Below are positions 9,014 to 38,891 of a stretch of DNA of 44,973 bases, piece by piece. The translations under genes were made by a program, and so were the position numbers. Origin of the DNA: an uncultured bacterium (lineage in GTDB: Bacteria > Planctomycetota > Planctomycetia > Gemmatales > HRBIN36); the NCBI GenBank assembly GCA_937858435.1, contig CALLZJ010000359.1:1-44973 (forward strand), given 5' to 3'. The notes beneath the pieces are model-generated. The model was not told the origin of the DNA, did no database searches, and saw nothing but the letters and a program-made list of their open reading frames with translations. Positions within the stretch are counted from its first letter, which is position 1; every line of letters starts with the position of its first letter.

Positions 9014-9388
9014 ACCGTGGCACGGCCAGCGGCGGGGTCGGGGTTGATGTCACTCACAACCGACGACGCGAACCCACCTCCAAGTTGGTAGGGTGGGGGC
9101 AGGTCGCCGATCTGAAGGTGGAAGGTGCGCCCAAAGGTCCGGTCGGCAGTCAGACTCTGGAACCGGCGGGCGCTTTGGGAGCGAGCGCCGGCGCTTCGCC
9201 AGAGTCGGCCACGAAGTCCGCAGACAGGCCGGCACCGCGGTGAACTGTGCGAAATCACTCGAAAAGTGGCATTCGGAGGCCGCTTGAGAACGCCTGGCAA
9301 CCCCGTGGAGGCCCCCTGGGACCCCCGTGGCGAAGCGTAGCGGACGCGCCCAGACGCGTGGCGAGCAGTCAGGCGCGGCAGAAAGGAG

Positions 9389-9459
9389 CTGGGGAACTAG
9401 GATTCGAACCTAGACTAACTGATCCAGAGTCAGTCGTGCTACCGTTACACCATTCCCCA
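9389..9459 (-). tRNA. tRNA-Gln (anticodon CUG)
   Basis: The reverse complement folds as a cloverleaf: acceptor TGGGGAA/TTCCCCA, D stem GTGT/GCAC, anticodon stem ACTGA/TCAGT with loop CT-CTG-GA, T arm CTAGG-TTCGAAT-CCTAG, discriminator G. CCA is not encoded. Confidence 0.9.
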
Positions 9460-11341: not shown

Positions 11342-13609
11342 ATGCCGACCGTACGTCTGCCCGATGGTTCCACCCGTTCTTATGCTTCCGGCAGCCGCAT
11401 CCGCGACGTGGCCGCCAGCATCGGCAAGCGCTTGGCCGAGGCGGCGATCGCGGCCAAGGTGGATGGCCAGATTCGCGACCTGGATCGGGAGCTGCCCGAG
11501 ACTGAGGCGCCCGTCGAACTGGCCATTCTCACCGAGCGTGATCGAGACAGCCTGGACGTGCTCCGGCATAGTTGTGCCCATGTCATGGCCCGGGCAGTGA
11601 TGCGGCTCTTTCCCAAGGTCGAACTCGCCTTCGGGCCCACCATCGAGAACGGCTTCTACTACGACATCCGCTCCGACCCACCGATCCGGGAAGACGACTT
11701 CCCCCGGATCGAGGAGGAGATGAAGAAGATCATCGCGGAGGGCGAGCCCTTCGAACGGTTTGAACTGCCCTTCGCCCAGGCGCGGCAGTTGTGCGGCGAC
11801 ATGAGCCAGACCCTGAAGGTCGAGCATCTGGACGAAGGGCTAAAGGACCAGGCGACGCTGAGCTTCTACCGGCAGGGCGAGTTTGTCGACTTGTGCCGGG
11901 GCCCCCACATCCCCCATGCGGGCAAGATCGGGGCGTGCAAGGTGCTGAGCATCGCCGGGGCCTACTGGAAAAACGACGCCCGCCGGCCGCAGCTTCAGCG
12001 GCTCTATGGCACCGCCTTCTTCTCCAAGAAGGAGCTGGACCAGCACCTGGCTCTCATTGAAGAGGCCAAGAAGCGCGATCATCGGCTGCTCGGCAAGCAG
12101 CTCAAGCTCTTCACCATTAACCCGCAGCAGGTCGGCCCGGGGCTCATCCTCTGGATGCCGAAGGGAGCGATCGTACGGGGCCTGCTCGAGACTTTCATCC
12201 GCGACGAGCTGATCAAGCGTGGCTATCAGCCCGTTTACACGCCCCACATCGGCAAGCTGGACCTCTATCGGACCAGCGGCCATTTCCCCTACTACCGGGA
12301 TGCCCAGTATCAGCCGATCTACTTCAATGCCATCGCCGGCGCTCTCGACCTGGCCCAGTATCGCTTCGCGGCCAAGGACTGGGACGAGAAGAAGGAACTC
12401 AAGTTCCTGGAGCTGCTCGACATGGCGGGCTATCAGGTGCCGGGCTACCGGGAAGCTCAGACCGAAGAGCAGCGGCTTGAGGCCGTGCATGCGTCCATCA
12501 GTCATTTGATGCGGGGCGTGGAGTTGGACGTGCCGGGCTATGCCGACGCCCGCTCCTGGGCTGACCGGGCCAAGGCCCTCGGGCAATGGCTCGAGACCAA
12601 GGAAGGCTATCTCCTACGGCCCATGAACTGCCCGCATCACATCCAGATCTACAAGGCCACTCCCCACAGCTACCGGGACCTGCCGCTGCGGCTGGCGGAG
12701 TTCGGCACCGTCTACCGCTTCGAGCAGACTGGCGAGCTCTCGGGCCTGACCCGGGTTCGAGGCTTCACCCAGGATGATGCCCATCTCTTCATGACCCCCG
12801 ATCAGGTCGAAGCGGAACTGATTAGCAATCTCGATCTGGTCGTCTTCGTGCTGCAGAGCCTGGGGCTGGACCATTACCGGGTCCGGGTGGGGCTGCGCGA
12901 TCCGGCGAGCGACAAGTACGTGGGCGATCCGGCCGTCTGGAGCCGGGCCGAGGAGACGCTGCTGGCGACCGTGCAGAAGCTGGGGCTGAATTTCACGGCC
13001 GAGCCAGGCGAGGCGGCCTTCTACGGACCCAAGATCGACTTCGTGGTCCGCGACTGCATCGGCCGGGAGTGGCAGCTTGGCACCGTGCAGCTCGACTACA
13101 ACTTGCCGGAACGCTTTGGGCTGGAGTACATCGGCCCGGACAACGCCGCGCATCGGCCCGTGATGATCCACCGAGCGCCGTTTGGGTCGATGGAGCGGTT
13201 CATCGGCATCCTGATCGAGCACTTCGCCGGGGCCTTCCCGCTCTGGTTGGCGCCGGAGCAGGCCCGCCTGATGCCAGTGAGTGAGCGGTTCTCGGAGTAT
13301 GCCCACCAGGTCGAGGCGGAGTTGCGGGCGGCGGGACTGCGGGTCCAGGGCGACTACCGGCCGGAGAAGATCGGCTACAAGATTCGCGAGGCCCAGCTCG
13401 AGAAGATTCCCTACATGCTCGTCGTGGGGGAAAAGGAGCAAGCGGCCGGCAGCGTGGCGGTGCGCTGCCGGGTGGACGGCGACTTGGGTGCCAAGCCCAT
13501 CGCCGAGGTGATCGACATGTTGCGCGGCGAGGTGGCGGTCCGCCGGATTCGGCAGACCAGCTCGGCCAGCGTCAGCTTCGACGACCAGGGAGCCAAGTTT
13601 TCCGAGTAG
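11342..13609 (+). CDS. thrS: threonine--tRNA ligase (755 aa) with a lineage-specific insertion
   Basis: TGS domain start MPTVRLPDGS, editing-domain HSCAHVMA, class II motifs RPMNCPHH, FTQDDAHLF, FYGPKIDF, MIHRAPFGSMERFIGILIEH, and an anticodon-binding C-terminus. Confidence 0.95.
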   Translation: MPTVRLPDGSTRSYASGSRIRDVAASIGKRLAEAAIAAKVDGQIRDLDRELPETEAPVELAILTERDRDSLDVLRHSCAHVMARAVMRLFPKVELAFGPTIENGFYYDIRSDPPIREDDFPRIEEEMKKIIAEGEPFERFELPFAQARQLCGDMSQTLKVEHLDEGLKDQATLSFYRQGEFVDLCRGPHIPHAGKIGACKVLSIAGAYWKNDARRPQLQRLYGTAFFSKKELDQHLALIEEAKKRDHRLLGKQLKLFTINPQQVGPGLILWMPKGAIVRGLLETFIRDELIKRGYQPVYTPHIGKLDLYRTSGHFPYYRDAQYQPIYFNAIAGALDLAQYRFAAKDWDEKKELKFLELLDMAGYQVPGYREAQTEEQRLEAVHASISHLMRGVELDVPGYADARSWADRAKALGQWLETKEGYLLRPMNCPHHIQIYKATPHSYRDLPLRLAEFGTVYRFEQTGELSGLTRVRGFTQDDAHLFMTPDQVEAELISNLDLVVFVLQSLGLDHYRVRVGLRDPASDKYVGDPAVWSRAEETLLATVQKLGLNFTAEPGEAAFYGPKIDFVVRDCIGREWQLGTVQLDYNLPERFGLEYIGPDNAAHRPVMIHRAPFGSMERFIGILIEHFAGAFPLWLAPEQARLMPVSERFSEYAHQVEAELRAAGLRVQGDYRPEKIGYKIREAQLEKIPYMLVVGEKEQAAGSVAVRCRVDGDLGAKPIAEVIDMLRGEVAVRRIRQTSSASVSFDDQGAKFSE

Positions 13610-13793
13610 GTATTCGTAAGACCGCCCTAGCGATCTCGCCGTCTGTCGGTCGAGACGGCTGCATCCGTGCTTGCGTTCCGTCCGTACAAGACGACAATAG
13701 GACCTAATGCCTAGACGCACGGCATGAAGGCTGCGAGCGCCTCATTCGCGGCTCCTTGGACGTTCCTTCCCCTCATTTGCTCGGAGACTCGCC

Positions 13794-14384
13794 ATGTCCC
13801 AGTCCCCGCCTGTCGCCCCCGCCCCCATGGAGCGGCCCCGCCGTTCGCGCATTGCCTCCGGGGCCAAGGTGCTCTTCATCGTGCTGCTGCTGTTGGCGGC
13901 CGTGTTTCTGATTGGCGGCCTCTTCATTCTGGACGGGAAGTACGACGTGTCCCGCAGTATCACCATCAAGGCTAGCCCCGAGGCCATCCACGAACAGGTG
14001 GGCGACCTGCGCGCCTGGCCCAAGTGGCTTCCCTTCACCAAGCACGACACCTCCGTGGTGACGAAGATCGAACAGCCGACAGGCGTCGGTGCCAAGCAGA
14101 CCTGGACCGGGAAGAGCGGCAATGGCCGACTCGAATTCACGACCAGCAGCGCGGAGTCGGGCATCGAGTTTGACATGGTCTTTGACGAGAAGTACGCCAG
14201 CAAGGGGATGCTGAAGTACAAGGCGGCCGGGGCGGAGACCGAGGTGACGTGGCGCATGCAGGGTCAGAACGATGACCTGGTGGGGAAGTGGTTCGCGGCG
14301 GTCACGCCCTACATGATCGGGCCGATGTTCGAAGAAGGGGTACAGGACCTGAAGAAGCTGGTAGAGGGCGGCGCGACCAAGTGA
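13794..14384 (+). CDS. SRPBCC (polyketide cyclase/START-like) family protein with N-terminal membrane anchor (196 aa)
   Basis: TM segment VLFIVLLLLAAVFLIGGLFIL followed by the typical SRPBCC start (VSRSITIKASPEAIHEQVGDLRAWPKW). Confidence 0.7.
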   Translation: MSQSPPVAPAPMERPRRSRIASGAKVLFIVLLLLAAVFLIGGLFILDGKYDVSRSITIKASPEAIHEQVGDLRAWPKWLPFTKHDTSVVTKIEQPTGVGAKQTWTGKSGNGRLEFTTSSAESGIEFDMVFDEKYASKGMLKYKAAGAETEVTWRMQGQNDDLVGKWFAAVTPYMIGPMFEEGVQDLKKLVEGGATK

Positions 14385-14486
14385 CCCCTCGGTTGATGCG
14401 GTAGCGAGGGTCAGCGTCGAACTTCAGAGGGCGGAGTCCTGGATGAGTAGGGTAGAATGGATGTAGTAGCTCTGAAGGAGGCTGCC

Positions 14487-14729
14487 ATGGCCAGCCGGTT
14501 GGTTGAGGAACTGCGTAGTCACGGCTATCAGGCCGACCCGGAGGCGTTTCGAGAGACGCTGGCCGACGTCATGTTCAATGGGTACGGCAGTTGGACCATC
14601 GATGATCTGCTCTGCCATCCAGAAGACGCATTGGAGTATTGCCGAATGGTGCGTCAATTGACGGGAAGCGATTTGCCCGACGACTTGATTCTGAAGACGT
14701 TGCTCAATCTCCGCAAGCGGGGTTACTAG
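14487..14729 (+). CDS. small hypothetical protein, paralog A (80 aa)
   Basis: SD GAAGGAGG 5 nt upstream of ATG 14487. Shares DDLLCHPxxALxxCxxVR...LILKTLLNLRK with the next ORF. Confidence 0.55.
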   Translation: MASRLVEELRSHGYQADPEAFRETLADVMFNGYGSWTIDDLLCHPEDALEYCRMVRQLTGSDLPDDLILKTLLNLRKRGY

Positions 14730-14750
14730 CACTGCCACAGGGAGCCTGCC

Positions 14751-15083
14751 ATGAACAATCGTCTGTCTCGCGAGCTCTCGGCGCAGGGCTGCAAGCTCGA
14801 TGTGGACGCGTTCCGCGCTGTGCTCCTGGAGGAATTGGGAGACACGACCACGGACGATCTGCTGTGCCATCCCCACGAGGCACTAGCTTTCTGTGACCGC
14901 GTGCGGCGCCGGCTGGATTGCGCTCTGTCGACCACACTGATCCTGAAGACGTTGCTTAATCTGCGCAAGAACCGCCACCTACGGCTGGCACTCGGGGAGC
15001 CTGGCGTCCGAGTCACACCCAAGCCCGGGACCCTGCGGCTGCCCGATGCCTACTTTCCGCTGGTGGAGCCAAGCGGCCGATGA
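14751..15083 (+). CDS. small hypothetical protein, paralog B (110 aa)
   Basis: GGGAG 6 nt upstream of the ATG. About 45 percent identical to paralog A plus a roughly 30-aa tail. Its stop overlaps the next start (ATGA). Confidence 0.55.
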   Translation: MNNRLSRELSAQGCKLDVDAFRAVLLEELGDTTTDDLLCHPHEALAFCDRVRRRLDCALSTTLILKTLLNLRKNRHLRLALGEPGVRVTPKPGTLRLPDAYFPLVEPSGR

Positions 15084-15586
15084 TGTACGAAGTGCCGACT
15101 CCGGACGCCGCCGTGACGCAAGGTGACTTGTTCACCCAGTGCCCGATTGTCGAGGTGCGGGCAGTCGAAGGTGCCGACTCGGAGATCGAAGTGCTCAAGG
15201 GTTTCGGAAGCGTGGTCGAGCTGACCCAGGCTTGCGATCTGGCTCAGGGTAAGGTCACCCATGTCGTGGCGGCTCGGATCGCTGCCGCAGCCCTCCTCGT
15301 CGAGAGCGGCGTGCTCAAGGATCAACAAGTGCGCAATCAGATTCGGCGTCACCAGGTCTATGGTTGGTACTTCCTGCCCGCGGACTCCTGTTTGCCTGCC
15401 TGGCAGGAATCCCTGGTTGATCTGCGAAACCTGATCACCTTGCCGCTTACCATGCTGGGCCACCTGGCTGCGGCGGGTTGCCGTGTCGGACGGCTCTGTT
15501 CGCCGTACCGAGAACACTTATCCAAGCACTTTGCGGACACTTATGCCCGCATTGGGCTGCCTGAACCGTATACCACAGAGCCGTGA
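15080..15586 (+). CDS. hypothetical protein (168 aa), translationally coupled to paralog B
   Basis: ATGA start/stop overlap at 15080-15083. No assignable domain. Contains QGDLFTQCPIVEV, LTQACDLAQGK and RNQIRRH strings. Confidence 0.55.
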   Translation: MMYEVPTPDAAVTQGDLFTQCPIVEVRAVEGADSEIEVLKGFGSVVELTQACDLAQGKVTHVVAARIAAAALLVESGVLKDQQVRNQIRRHQVYGWYFLPADSCLPAWQESLVDLRNLITLPLTMLGHLAAAGCRVGRLCSPYREHLSKHFADTYARIGLPEPYTTEP

Positions 15587-15685
15587 CCCCTCGGTGCCGC
15601 GCGGCGGGACTCGGCGCAAGGACCGGGGTTGGCCAGCGAATCAAGGCGAGAGTGGTCGATCTGGACTCAAGAGGGGAATTGACCC

Positions 15686-38802: not shown

Positions 38803-38891
<89 letters not shown>

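What the first reader, a model, noticed from the sequence alone, without database searches (positions are those of the whole stretch)
14487..15586. Three-gene cassette: two tandem paralogous small proteins with a conserved CHP..C motif, coupled to an unassignable 168-aa protein
ORFs of 80 and 110 aa are clear paralogs, about 45 percent identical. Both carry AFR, DDLLCHPxxALxxCxxVR and LILKTLLNLRK. A 33-nt stretch is 29/33 identical (14685-14717 versus 14937-14969), and even the SD context is repeated (GGAGGCTGCCATG versus GGAGCCTGCCATG). The conserved Cys-His-x7-Cys could be a metal or redox site. Paralog B ends in an ATGA overlap with a 168-aa ORF (QGDLFTQCPIVEV, LTQACDLAQGK, FLPADSC, SPYREHLSKHFADTYARIGLPEP) that matches nothing I recognise. 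That ORF contains RNQIRRH, which fits the minimal HEPN Rx4-6H string, but a string that short can occur by chance. The cassette sits between housekeeping and envelope genes, and its GC looks lower than the surroundings. Small duplicated partners tightly coupled to a larger effector-like protein is typical of toxin-antitoxin, immunity or defence modules, though nothing here matches a named family.
Basis: partly seen in the sequence, partly recalled or inferred. Interest (0 to 1): 0.7.

Follow-up and report, generated by a model that had tools for sequence, protein, structure and literature searches.

The report
Three-gene MazF-like toxin-antitoxin module
The three small genes look like a self-contained toxin-antitoxin operon: its 168-aa protein is an unannotated, Planctomycetes-wide relative (by predicted fold) of the MazF toxin, and its antitoxin carries an undescribed helical domain that is also encoded alone by an extra upstream gene, so this is a new variant of a familiar kind of system.

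Summary
Genes A (14487-14729, 80 aa), B (14751-15083, 110 aa) and C (15080-15586, 168 aa) are real and co-directional. A and B are 48% identical, and B and C share an ATGA overlap. None has a Pfam, NCBIfam, PADLOC or PHROG match.

C belongs to a family of at least 368 protein clusters, almost all from Planctomycetota. Its AlphaFold model (pLDDT 92) matches only MazF/Kid/PemK toxins in the PDB.

In 65 of 86 loci, C homologues follow a small gene with two parts. The N-terminal domain is interchangeable (XRE HTH, ParD-like, FitA-like RHH and others). The C-terminal tail is conserved and proline-rich. This is the classic modular type II antitoxin layout.

B carries the second half of that tail, predicted disordered, on a five-helix domain with no structural analogue. 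A is that domain alone.

The A-B-C triad recurs in four unrelated neighbourhoods. The domain has 486 relatives, some tandem, some fused to or next to DNA methyltransferases.

The proposed Cys-His-Cys metal site and the HEPN motif are not conserved.

Verdict: a MazEF-like toxin-antitoxin module with a new antitoxin domain and a third, paralogous component. Toxicity, biochemical activity and the role of A are inferred, not shown.

The parts
14453..14460 (+). -10-like box TAGAATGG, 26 nt upstream of the A start codon; candidate operon promoter
   Evidence: TA(G/T)AATGG lies at the same distance (22-26 nt) upstream of the A-type gene in the window, L085 and L088. It is absent from L100. The strict sigma-70 scan found no full promoter. 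Weak evidence.
14487..14729 (+). Gene A: 80-aa protein made only of the helical A/B domain, with no toxin-binding tail
   Evidence: ORF. Called as a gene in public assemblies (P0272). 48% identical to the B N-domain. 56-65% identical to the A-type proteins of other triads. An 80-aa A-type gene precedes B in L087-89 and L100-102; in L085/L086 only N- and C-terminal fragments of the A-type gene are readable, separated by an N-run.
14751..14990 (+). Gene B, N-terminal A/B domain (residues 1-80): predicted five-helix domain
   Evidence: AlphaFold model: helices 3-11, 18-29, 34-39, 41-55 and 61-80, pLDDT 81-93 over residues 1-70 and 70 for the 71-80 block. 486 homologues of the domain. No Pfam or PHROG family. 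No Foldseek analogue in PDB or BFVD.
14991..15083 (+). Gene B, C-terminal tail (residues 81-110, LALGEPGVRVTPKPGTLRLPDAYFPLVEPSGR) plus stop codon: predicted toxin-neutralising segment
   Evidence: Predicted disordered, pLDDT 49-57. It matches the second half (profile positions 26-46) of the tail profile built from antitoxins of other C-family loci, E=6e-5. tblastn hits lie immediately upstream of C homologues in L030, L056 and L084. The same tail is present in P0149, P0153 and P0159.
15080..15586 (+). Gene C: 168-aa MazF/Kid-fold toxin-like protein, member of an unannotated Planctomycetota-wide family
   Evidence: 368 homologues; 128 genome loci. AlphaFold pLDDT 92.4, pTM 0.85. The top 50 Foldseek PDB hits are all MazF/Kid/PemK; best E=1e-4, prob 1.0, TM (target-normalised) mostly 0.57-0.75. 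Invariant residues: Q50, C52, D53, R89, Y97, F98, E110.
14381..14393 (.). Left copy of a perfect 13-nt direct repeat GTGACCCCTCGGT, overlapping the stop codon of the upstream SRPBCC gene
   Evidence: the repeat finder family D12. There are only two copies in the 45-kb window. The meaning is unresolved; it may be an insertion or deletion scar.
15583..15595 (.). Right copy of the same 13-nt direct repeat, overlapping the stop codon of gene C
   Evidence: The two copies bracket the cassette exactly, 1202 nt apart.

Best explanation
A-B-C is a three-gene type II toxin-antitoxin-like operon of the MazEF kind.

C is the toxin. It is a divergent, enlarged MazF/Kid-fold protein from a family that is spread through Planctomycetota, often in several copies per genome.

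B is its antitoxin. A disordered, proline-rich C-terminal tail (about residues 81-110, ...PGTLRLPDAYFPLVE) binds and neutralises C, as the MazE tail does with MazF. The N-terminal five-helix domain takes the place that RHH, ParD-like or HTH DNA-binding/dimerisation domains hold in the antitoxins of other family members.

A is a tail-less copy of that domain. Many homologues carry two such domains in one chain, so the domain probably works as a pair. A most likely pairs with B, or binds the same operator. That would make it a co-regulator that sets how many neutralising tails each repressor unit carries.

What is shown here:
- the gene structure;
- the paralogy of A and B;
- recurrence of the triad;
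- the predicted folds;
- the modular partners of C with a shared tail.

What is inferred:
- that C is toxic;
- that C is an RNase;
- that the tail neutralises C;
- that the A/B domain binds DNA or dimerises;
- the role of A.
For: 1. Fold. The C model is confident (pLDDT 92.4). All 50 best PDB matches are MazF/Kid/PemK toxins (best E=1e-4, prob 1.0). The order of secondary-structure elements fits MazF with an extra helical insert at about residues 70-90.

2. Genetic architecture across the family. In 65 of 86 loci a conserved tail (consensus RLPDPPFLTEEISAPFDLPRPGTGEPVKARPGSKRLPDP) is encoded directly upstream of C, usually with a 4-nt overlap.

3. The N-terminal halves of those partners are interchangeable:
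- XRE HTH, above the Pfam threshold;
- ParD-like, TIGR02606 E=2e-6 and 3e-5;
- FitA-like RHH, E=5e-4, below the gathering score;
- at least three further unassigned types.

4. The B tail matches the second half of that shared tail and is predicted disordered.

5. All four B-type proteins found (B, P0149, P0153, P0159) sit in an A-B-C triad with a B/C overlap. The four neighbourhoods differ: SRPBCC/PQQ, thrS, PilZ, and Rieske oxygenase.

6. Six MAGs hold at least two C-family loci. The cassette is GC-poor and GC3-poor relative to its host. Both are typical of toxin-antitoxin modules.

7. Many of the best-scoring A/B-domain homologues are two-domain proteins of about 170-250 aa. This supports a paired functional unit.

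8. A is more conserved between triads (56-65%) than the B N-domain (41-54%). C is 57-59% identical between triads.
Against: - No sequence method links C to MazF. No Pfam PemK_toxin hit in any of 42 members, no PDB sequence hit, and hhalign against three MazF/Kid sequences is insignificant.
- The invariant residues of the family (Q14, D16, C21, T49-Q50-x-C52-D53, K58, R89, GWYFLP, E110, R144-E145-H146, H150) are not the MazF catalytic set, so the activity may differ.
- The window's C lacks two residues that most of the family keeps: S44 where 75/83 have Arg, and A68 where 61/83 have His. By strand register and the weak hhalign these fall near MazF R29 and T52. This copy could therefore be attenuated.
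- B has only half of the consensus tail.
- The A/B domain also occurs outside toxin-antitoxin contexts, next to or fused with N6_N4 DNA methyltransferases in phage-like contigs. Its function is not defined by this module.
- Nothing shows DNA binding by the domain, and no convincing operator or full promoter was found.
- No experiment exists.
Confidence: 0.6

Rival explanations
1. A is the dedicated transcriptional regulator of the operon and B is only the antitoxin. This would be a true three-component system like omega-epsilon-zeta or paaR-paaA-parE, with no A-B pairing.
For: The gene order regulator-antitoxin-toxin matches those systems (background in PMC7167474). A is the most conserved of the three. 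A is closest (62%) to the generic form of the domain found elsewhere, for example on the methyltransferase fusion P0139.
Against: In the known three-component systems the antitoxin lacks the regulator's domain. Here B keeps a full copy of it. Frequent two-domain homologues argue that the domain acts in pairs. DNA binding is untested for either protein.
Confidence: 0.25
2. The triad is an anti-phage (abortive infection) system. The A/B domain, which is shared with proteins encoded beside phage-like DNA methyltransferases, senses a phage product or is a target of phage mimicry. C is released as the effector.
For: A/B-domain genes directly follow or are fused to N6_N4_Mtase genes in contigs with phage-like content (Phage_P22_Y8K6, many small ORFs, DNA pol III beta, DHFR). 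Many type II toxin-antitoxin modules are now known to defend against phages (PMC10440598, listed).
Against: PADLOC finds nothing. The flanks of all four triads are metabolic or housekeeping genes, not defence genes. Neither C nor the A/B domain was found in IMG/VR, GenBank phages or plasmids. This reading is compatible with the main explanation rather than exclusive of it.
Confidence: 0.15
3. C is not a toxin. It is a MazF-fold protein with another role, for example a metal-dependent or Cys-dependent enzyme, or a binding protein that acts on or with the conserved proline-rich tail of its partner.
For: The invariant residues differ from the MazF catalytic residues. They include four potential metal ligands or a Cys/His pair: C21, C52, H146 and H150, the last two in an HxxxH spacing. 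The fold superfamily also contains the non-enzymatic gyrase poison CcdB (general knowledge). The window copy lacks the family's R44 and H68 yet keeps every other invariant residue.
Against: The strict pairing with partners that carry known antitoxin-type N-domains (ParD-like, FitA-like, XRE) is the signature of toxin-antitoxin pairs. So are the gene overlap, the multiple copies per genome and the variable neighbourhoods.
Confidence: 0.12
4. C is a HEPN-type RNase acting through RNQIRRH, and A/B are metal- or redox-sensing partners acting through Cys-His-x7-Cys.
For: The strings are present in the window proteins.
Against: H91 is present in only 45/83 homologues, and 33 have Gly. The C model is beta-rich and MazF-like, not an all-alpha HEPN fold. 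In 40 A/B-domain homologues the first Cys is present in 20 and the His in 21.
Confidence: 0.02
5. The small ORFs are spurious and the antisense 150-aa ORF (14424-14876) is the real gene.
For: The antisense ORF exists.
Against: A and B have hundreds of homologues in their own frames. Differences from relatives are dominated by third codon positions. Recurrence of the triad preserves the sense genes. Long antisense ORFs are expected at 65% GC.
Confidence: 0.01

Closest known systems
MazE-MazF / Kis-Kid / PemI-PemK type II toxin-antitoxin systems
   Same: The predicted toxin fold is the same; all top 50 PDB matches are MazF/Kid/PemK. The antitoxin is encoded upstream with gene overlap. The antitoxin is built from an N-terminal dimerisation/DNA-binding-type domain plus an extended, disordered C-terminal tail. 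In the solved complexes that matched here, an antitoxin fragment is bound to the toxin (8zws, 5cqy, 7du4).
   Different: There is no detectable sequence similarity. The toxin is about 50 residues longer, with a helical insert. It has a different set of invariant residues (TQxCD, GWYFLP, REHxxxH). Its tail motif is proline-rich and family-specific. The antitoxin domain in this locus is a five-helix domain, not AbrB or RHH. A third gene is present. RNase activity is untested.
Three-component toxin-antitoxin systems (paaR-paaA-parE, omega-epsilon-zeta, HipBST)
   Same: Three co-directional genes in which an extra small protein precedes the antitoxin and toxin (PMC7167474; PMC8630535 and PMC10627512, listed). 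The triad order is conserved in four loci.
   Different: In those systems the third component is an unrelated regulator, or in HipBST a split-off piece of the toxin. Here the third component is a paralogue of the antitoxin's own N-terminal domain. I know of no described precedent for that. This rests on my own knowledge plus three literature searches, not an exhaustive review.
Combinatorial (domain-swapping) antitoxin networks, as mapped by NetFlax
   Same: One toxin family is partnered with antitoxins that share a neutralising element but swap other domains. This is the general principle described in PMC10440598 (listed). Here at least six N-domain types sit on one conserved tail.
   Different: In this family the conserved element is a short linear tail, not a globular promiscuous antitoxin domain. 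I did not check whether this toxin family is among the NetFlax clusters.

Membership tests
Type II toxin-antitoxin module (generic) | Two adjacent, co-directional small genes with a short gap or overlap, antitoxin first | tested here: met
   B and C overlap as ATGA. The same overlap or a gap under 20 nt is seen in most of the 86 family loci.
Type II toxin-antitoxin module (generic) | The antitoxin combines a DNA-binding/dimerisation domain with a toxin-binding region | tested here: inconclusive
   Met for other family members: XRE HTH above the Pfam threshold, ParD-like E=2e-6, and FitA-like RHH below threshold, each with a conserved tail. For B itself the tail is present (E=6e-5), but the N-domain has no known function or structural analogue.
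Type II toxin-antitoxin module (generic) | Patchy, multi-copy distribution in varying genomic neighbourhoods | tested here: met
   128 loci in GTDB genomes, six MAGs with at least two copies, and unrelated flanks. The four triads lie in four different neighbourhoods.
Type II toxin-antitoxin module (generic) | The toxin arrests growth and the cognate antitoxin neutralises it by direct binding | not testable with these tools
   Needs expression and interaction experiments.
MazF/PemK/Kid toxin family | Sequence match to the family profile (Pfam PemK_toxin) or to solved members | tested here: not met
   No Pfam hit at E<=10 in any of 42 members. No PDB sequence hit to MazF. hhalign probability 0.13%.
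MazF/PemK/Kid toxin family | SH3-like beta-barrel fold of MazF/Kid/CcdB | tested here: met
   Predicted only. Model pLDDT 92.4. All top 50 Foldseek hits are MazF/Kid/PemK, E down to 1e-4, prob 1.0, TM 0.51-0.75 (mostly 0.57 or above) normalised to the target.
MazF/PemK/Kid toxin family | Catalytic Arg/Thr pair (E. coli MazF R29/T52) and sequence-specific ssRNA cleavage | tested here: inconclusive
   No coordinates were available for a residue-level superposition. By strand register and a weak hhalign, the family's R44 (75/83) and H68 (61/83) fall near those positions, but the window's C has S44 and A68. Activity cannot be tested here.
HEPN RNase | Conserved Rx4-6H motif in an all-alpha fold | tested here: not met
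   H91 is present in 45/83 homologues and Gly in 33/83. The model is predominantly beta.
Three-component toxin-antitoxin system with dedicated regulator (paaR-paaA-parE, omega-epsilon-zeta) | The third gene encodes a regulator unrelated to the antitoxin, and the antitoxin lacks a DNA-binding domain | tested here: not met
   A is 48% identical to the B N-domain, and B keeps the full domain. The conserved three-gene order itself is met.
   In 40 homologues the first Cys is present in 20, the His in 21 and the second Cys in 36. Pro (39/40) and N-x-R-K are the conserved positions.
Known anti-phage defence systems (PADLOC-DB) | Match to a defence-system protein model | tested here: not met
   No PADLOC hit for A, B or C at E<=1.

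The most novel reading that the evidence does not exclude
Two linked possibilities remain open.

(i) The C family may use the MazF scaffold for a different chemistry or target. It keeps four potential metal ligands (C21, C52, H146, H150) nearly or fully invariant, plus the TQxCD and GWYFLP motifs, while the MazF-type catalytic positions are dispensable in this copy.

(ii) The A/B domain may be a new nucleic-acid-binding or sensor fold shared between antitoxins and phage-type DNA-methyltransferase-associated proteins. The tail-less paralogue A would then tune, or trigger, toxin release. That would be a toxin-antitoxin module regulated by a decoy copy of its own antitoxin domain.
Probability: 0.2. 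Interest if true: 0.7.

Novelty: new variant of a known kind. Interest (0 to 1): 0.48.

Why it matters
This work assigns a fold and a likely role to a protein family with no annotation: at least 368 clusters, and 128 loci in GTDB species genomes. The family appears largely confined to Planctomycetota, a phylum whose toxin-antitoxin repertoire is little studied.

The family is also a clean natural example of antitoxin modularity. One short linear tail sits on at least six different N-terminal domains.

The locus adds two things that can be tested:
- a roughly 80-residue helical domain with 486 relatives and no Pfam family or structural analogue, which also travels with DNA methyltransferases;
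- a conserved three-gene layout in which the extra component is a paralogue of the antitoxin's own domain.

If the toxin's distinct invariant residues reflect a new activity on the MazF scaffold, the known range of this toxin superfamily would widen.

Tried and rejected
- Family searches. Pfam, NCBIfam, PADLOC and PHROGs on A, B and C gave nothing. Pfam on 42 C homologues and on 40 A/B-domain homologues gave no consistent family; there were only stray sub-threshold hits, including PF20007 on two HTH-fusion proteins.
- Sequence links to MazF. A C-family profile against PDB sequences gave no meaningful hit.
- Homologues of B. The word-indexed homology search with B returned only B itself. That looked like an orphan, but the exhaustive profile search overturned it with 486 hits.
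- Structural analogues of the B model. Foldseek against PDB and BFVD found none.
- Other collections. A metagenome scan with B-type proteins gave only the already known JRYK contig and one unrelated single-domain gene. IMG/VR scans for C and for the A/B domain found nothing, and one alignment was too diverse to scan. GenBank plasmids (C) and phages (A) gave no match.
- Stop-codon read-through joining A to B. A and B are in frame in the window and in L086. I rejected the idea because L087 has two in-frame stops and in L100 the genes are out of frame.
- Gene conversion as the cause of the 29/32-nt stretch. It is not needed. The stretch encodes the most conserved motif (LILKTLLNLRK), and 8 of 11 identical codons is unremarkable at this GC3.
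- Terminators and structured RNA. No Rfam hit in the cassette. Hairpins after the SRPBCC gene and after C fold no better than shuffled sequence. No full sigma-70 promoter was found.
- Empty-site search. A look-up with the exact SRPBCC protein returned only the same contig arrangement.
Full report
**1. The observation**

- A and B are paralogues: 37/77 identical, E=3e-20.
- The strongest DNA-level repeat is 14686-14717 versus 14938-14969, 29/32 identical. The sequences before the two start codons differ at one base in 13.
- B's TGA overlaps C's ATG.
- The cassette is compositionally atypical. GC is 0.609 against 0.653 for the window, in the lowest 3.2% of 1100-nt windows. GC3 is 0.70-0.75 against 0.81-0.87 in thrS, the SRPBCC gene and the PQQ-propeller gene around it.

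The sense frames are the real ones.
- A and B are called genes in public assemblies.
- The shared domain has hundreds of homologues.
- Differences from related loci pile up at third codon positions.
- The antisense 150-aa ORF is a high-GC artefact.
- No Rfam family or tRNA lies in the region.

The window is part of GCA_035327725.1, contig DAOLCU010000003.1.

**2. Gene C**

No Pfam, NCBIfam, PADLOC or PHROG model matches C, and no model matches any of 42 homologues. C is nevertheless far from an orphan.
- 368 protein clusters match it at E<=1e-3. Nearly all are 162-177 aa, about 50% identical, and are named only 'hypothetical protein' from Gemmataceae or Planctomycetes.
- A scan of one genome per GTDB species found 128 loci. 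Almost all are in Planctomycetota MAGs (Gemmatales, Pirellulales, Isosphaerales, Planctomycetales, one Kuenenia). Six MAGs hold two copies among the 80 loci kept. A few short contigs carry other taxon labels and may be mis-binned.
- None was found in IMG/VR or in GenBank plasmids.

An AlphaFold model built on a 42-sequence alignment is confident: pLDDT 92.4, pTM 0.85. Its 50 best PDB matches are all MazF/Kid/PemK toxins, with E down to 1e-4, probability 1.0, TM mostly 0.57-0.75 normalised to the target, and 7-18% identity.

The order of strands and helices follows MazF, with an added helical segment at about residues 70-90. The C-terminal half (ESLVDLRxLxTxP...G.R..RL..P.REHL..HF) loosely recalls the MazF pattern. 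Sequence methods alone do not detect the relationship.

Over 83 family members:
- Q50, C52, D53, R89, Y97, F98 and E110 are invariant.
- Q14, D16, C21, T49, K58, R85, G95, W96, P100, R144, E145, H146, H150 and R157 are nearly invariant.
Together with the beta-rich fold, this rules out HEPN.

**3. The partners of C**

In other loci the gene just upstream of C is a small ORF of 85-125 aa, often overlapping by 4 nt. These partners have two parts.

The C-terminal half is conserved across the family. Its consensus is RLPDPPFLTEEISAPFDLPRPGTGEPVKARPGSKRLPDP followed by acidic residues. A profile of it hits directly upstream of C in 65 of 86 loci.

The N-terminal half is interchangeable:
- an XRE-type HTH, above the Pfam thresholds;
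- ParD-like, TIGR02606 E=2e-6 and 3e-5 over the N-terminal 35-40 residues, and Pfam ParD_antitoxin below threshold;
- a FitA-like RHH, E=5e-4, below threshold;
- the common 'MPTLVIENVP..LYERIQ' type, which looks like an RHH but had no hit;
- a 'GVLRPDG.IEL...LP.G.V.V' type that I recall as resembling AF2212/DUF104 antitoxins (memory only, no hit here);
- a 'MKYEVDFP' type;
- a 'MSISLADALE.VELE.GR.Y.C.V' type with a variant tail.

One toxin-like protein with a shared linear binding element on swappable DNA-binding domains is the standard anatomy of a type II toxin-antitoxin family. In particular it matches MazE-type antitoxins, whose extended C-terminal tail lies on the MazF dimer. Antitoxin-fragment complexes (8zws, 5cqy, 7du4) are among the matches.

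**4. Genes B and A**

B fits this scheme.
- Its last 30 residues (LALGEPGVRVTPKPGTLRLPDAYFPLVEPSGR) match the second half of the family tail, profile positions 26-46, E=6e-5.
- tblastn hits to these residues fall immediately upstream of C homologues in L030, L056 and L084.
- The tail is predicted disordered (pLDDT 49-57), while residues 1-80 form five helices (pLDDT 81-93 over residues 1-70, 70 for the 71-80 block).

That helical domain has no Pfam or PHROG family and no Foldseek analogue in PDB or BFVD; the best E-values are 3.5 and 1.5.

A word-indexed search made B look unique. The exhaustive profile search found 486 relatives, 139 of them at E<=1e-10. They comprise:
- single domains of about 80-100 aa;
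- many two-domain proteins of about 170-180 aa;
- proteins of about 245-250 aa with an N-terminal HTH-like region (PHROG transcriptional repressor, E=1e-4) followed by two copies of the domain;
- an N6_N4 DNA methyltransferase with the domain at its C-terminus, P0139.

In phage-like contigs, the single or double domain is encoded directly after an N6_N4_Mtase gene.

Across 40 homologues the conserved positions are L9, F21, P41, A44, the second Cys (36/40) and the I-L-x-x-L-x-N-x-R-K helix. The first Cys (20/40) and the His (21/40) of 'CHP' are not conserved. This removes the proposed metal or redox site.

**5. The triad recurs**

Every tail-bearing B-type protein I could find lies in the same three-gene arrangement: an A-type gene (80 aa where it is complete), then B (110-113 aa), then a C-family gene overlapping B by 4 nt. 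There are four different neighbourhoods:
- the window (SRPBCC | ABC | PQQ propeller);
- L085/L086 (directly after thrS; the A-type gene is interrupted by an N-run);
- L087-89 (next to a PilZ gene);
- L100-103 (after a Rieske oxygenase).

A-type proteins are 56-65% identical to each other. B N-domains are 41-54% identical and the C proteins 57-59%. So the A/B duplication predates these lineages, and A is somewhat more constrained than the B N-domain.

None of the 80 other genome loci with C homologues contains the A/B domain. The triad is therefore a rare sub-type of the family.

**6. Most likely mechanism**

Transcription probably starts upstream of A. A TA(G/T)AATGG box sits 22-26 nt before the A start codon in three of the four triads. 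The strict promoter scan found nothing, so this is weak evidence.

C is the toxin and B neutralises it through its tail. The A/B domain supplies what RHH, HTH or ParD-type domains supply elsewhere, namely dimerisation and probably operator binding.

The domain is so often duplicated within one chain that it probably functions as a pair. A would then pair with B, or compete with B2, and so set the number of tails per repressor unit and tune autoregulation.

All biochemical steps here are inferred. I put about 0.6 on the toxin-antitoxin reading as a whole and about 0.3-0.4 on the specific role proposed for A. The main alternative for A is a dedicated regulator, as in omega-epsilon-zeta or paaR-paaA-parE (PMC7167474).

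**7. Caveats and loose ends**

- C fails the sequence test for MazF membership, and its invariant residues are different. I therefore call it MazF-fold, not MazF.
- The window's C has S44 and A68 where the family has Arg (75/83) and His (61/83). By strand register and a weak hhalign these fall near MazF R29 and T52. The L085 and L087 triads also lack them, but the L100 triad has both. Either these residues are not essential or some triad toxins are attenuated.
- C21, C52, H146 and H150 are nearly or fully invariant and could form a metal site. I had no coordinates to check this.
- A perfect 13-nt direct repeat (GTGACCCCTCGGT) overlaps the stop codons of the SRPBCC gene and of C, and so brackets the cassette exactly. 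Together with the low GC3 this suggests an insertion or a deletion-prone site, but no empty site was found.

**8. Novelty and score**

This is a new variant of a known kind: a MazEF-like type II module. It has an unannotated, phylum-restricted toxin family, a new antitoxin N-domain, and a conserved third gene that is a paralogue of that domain.

A toxin-antitoxin specialist would find it useful and moderately surprising. It does not overturn anything. Interest is about 0.48.

Noticed in passing
window 14381-14393 and 15583-15595: A perfect 13-nt direct repeat GTGACCCCTCGGT, present only twice in the 45-kb window. Each copy overlaps a stop codon (of the SRPBCC gene and of gene C), so the pair brackets the A-B-C cassette exactly, 1202 nt apart. 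It could be an insertion scar or a substrate for precise deletion.
   Followed up: partly
L085 1-400 (JRYK01114601.1) versus window 13460-14500: In a related organism (thrS 3' end about 79% identical in DNA) the A-B-C triad follows thrS directly, with no SRPBCC gene between. Either the SRPBCC gene or the cassette has moved relative to thrS.
   Followed up: partly
window 14422-14429 and 14470-14477: An 8-nt perfect inverted repeat CTTCAGAG / CTCTGAAG flanks the -10-like box upstream of gene A. It is a possible operator, but it is not conserved in L085 and could be chance.
   Followed up: partly
L094 3503-5528; L095 3725-5279; protein P0139: The A/B helical domain is encoded immediately after, and overlapping, N6_N4 DNA methyltransferase genes in phage-like contigs. 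In P0139 it is fused to the C-terminus of such a methyltransferase. This suggests a nucleic-acid-related or regulatory role outside toxin-antitoxin modules.
   Followed up: partly
window 15080-15586 (protein C residues 21, 52, 146, 150): C21, C52, H146 and H150 (the last two in an HxxxH spacing) are nearly or fully invariant across 83 family members and could be a Cys2His2 metal site on the MazF-like scaffold.
   Followed up: no
window 15209-15211 and 15281-15283 (protein C residues 44 and 68): The window's C has Ser and Ala where 75/83 and 61/83 family members have Arg and His. The triad toxins in L085 and L087 also lack both, but the one in L100 has both.
   Followed up: partly
proteins P0126 (residues 79-126) and P0130 (residues 70-119): Two HTH-plus-double-domain relatives give sub-threshold Pfam hits to PF20007, an FtsH ternary system-associated peptide (E=6e-4 to 2e-3, below the gathering score), spanning the linker and the N-terminal part of the first A/B domain. 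Only 1 of 40 single-domain homologues shows it.
   Followed up: partly
window 14727-14753; L086 1-90; L087 262-295; L100 3975-4004: A and B are in the same reading frame, separated by a single stop codon, in the window and in L086. L087 has two in-frame stops, and in L100 the genes are out of frame. Read-through fusion is therefore unlikely. The layout may be a relic of a split two-domain gene.
   Followed up: yes
window 9388-9459 (-) and 38803-38891 (+): tRNA-Gln(CTG) and tRNA-Ser(GGA) genes. Neither is adjacent to the cassette, so there is no tRNA-linked integration site.
   Followed up: yes
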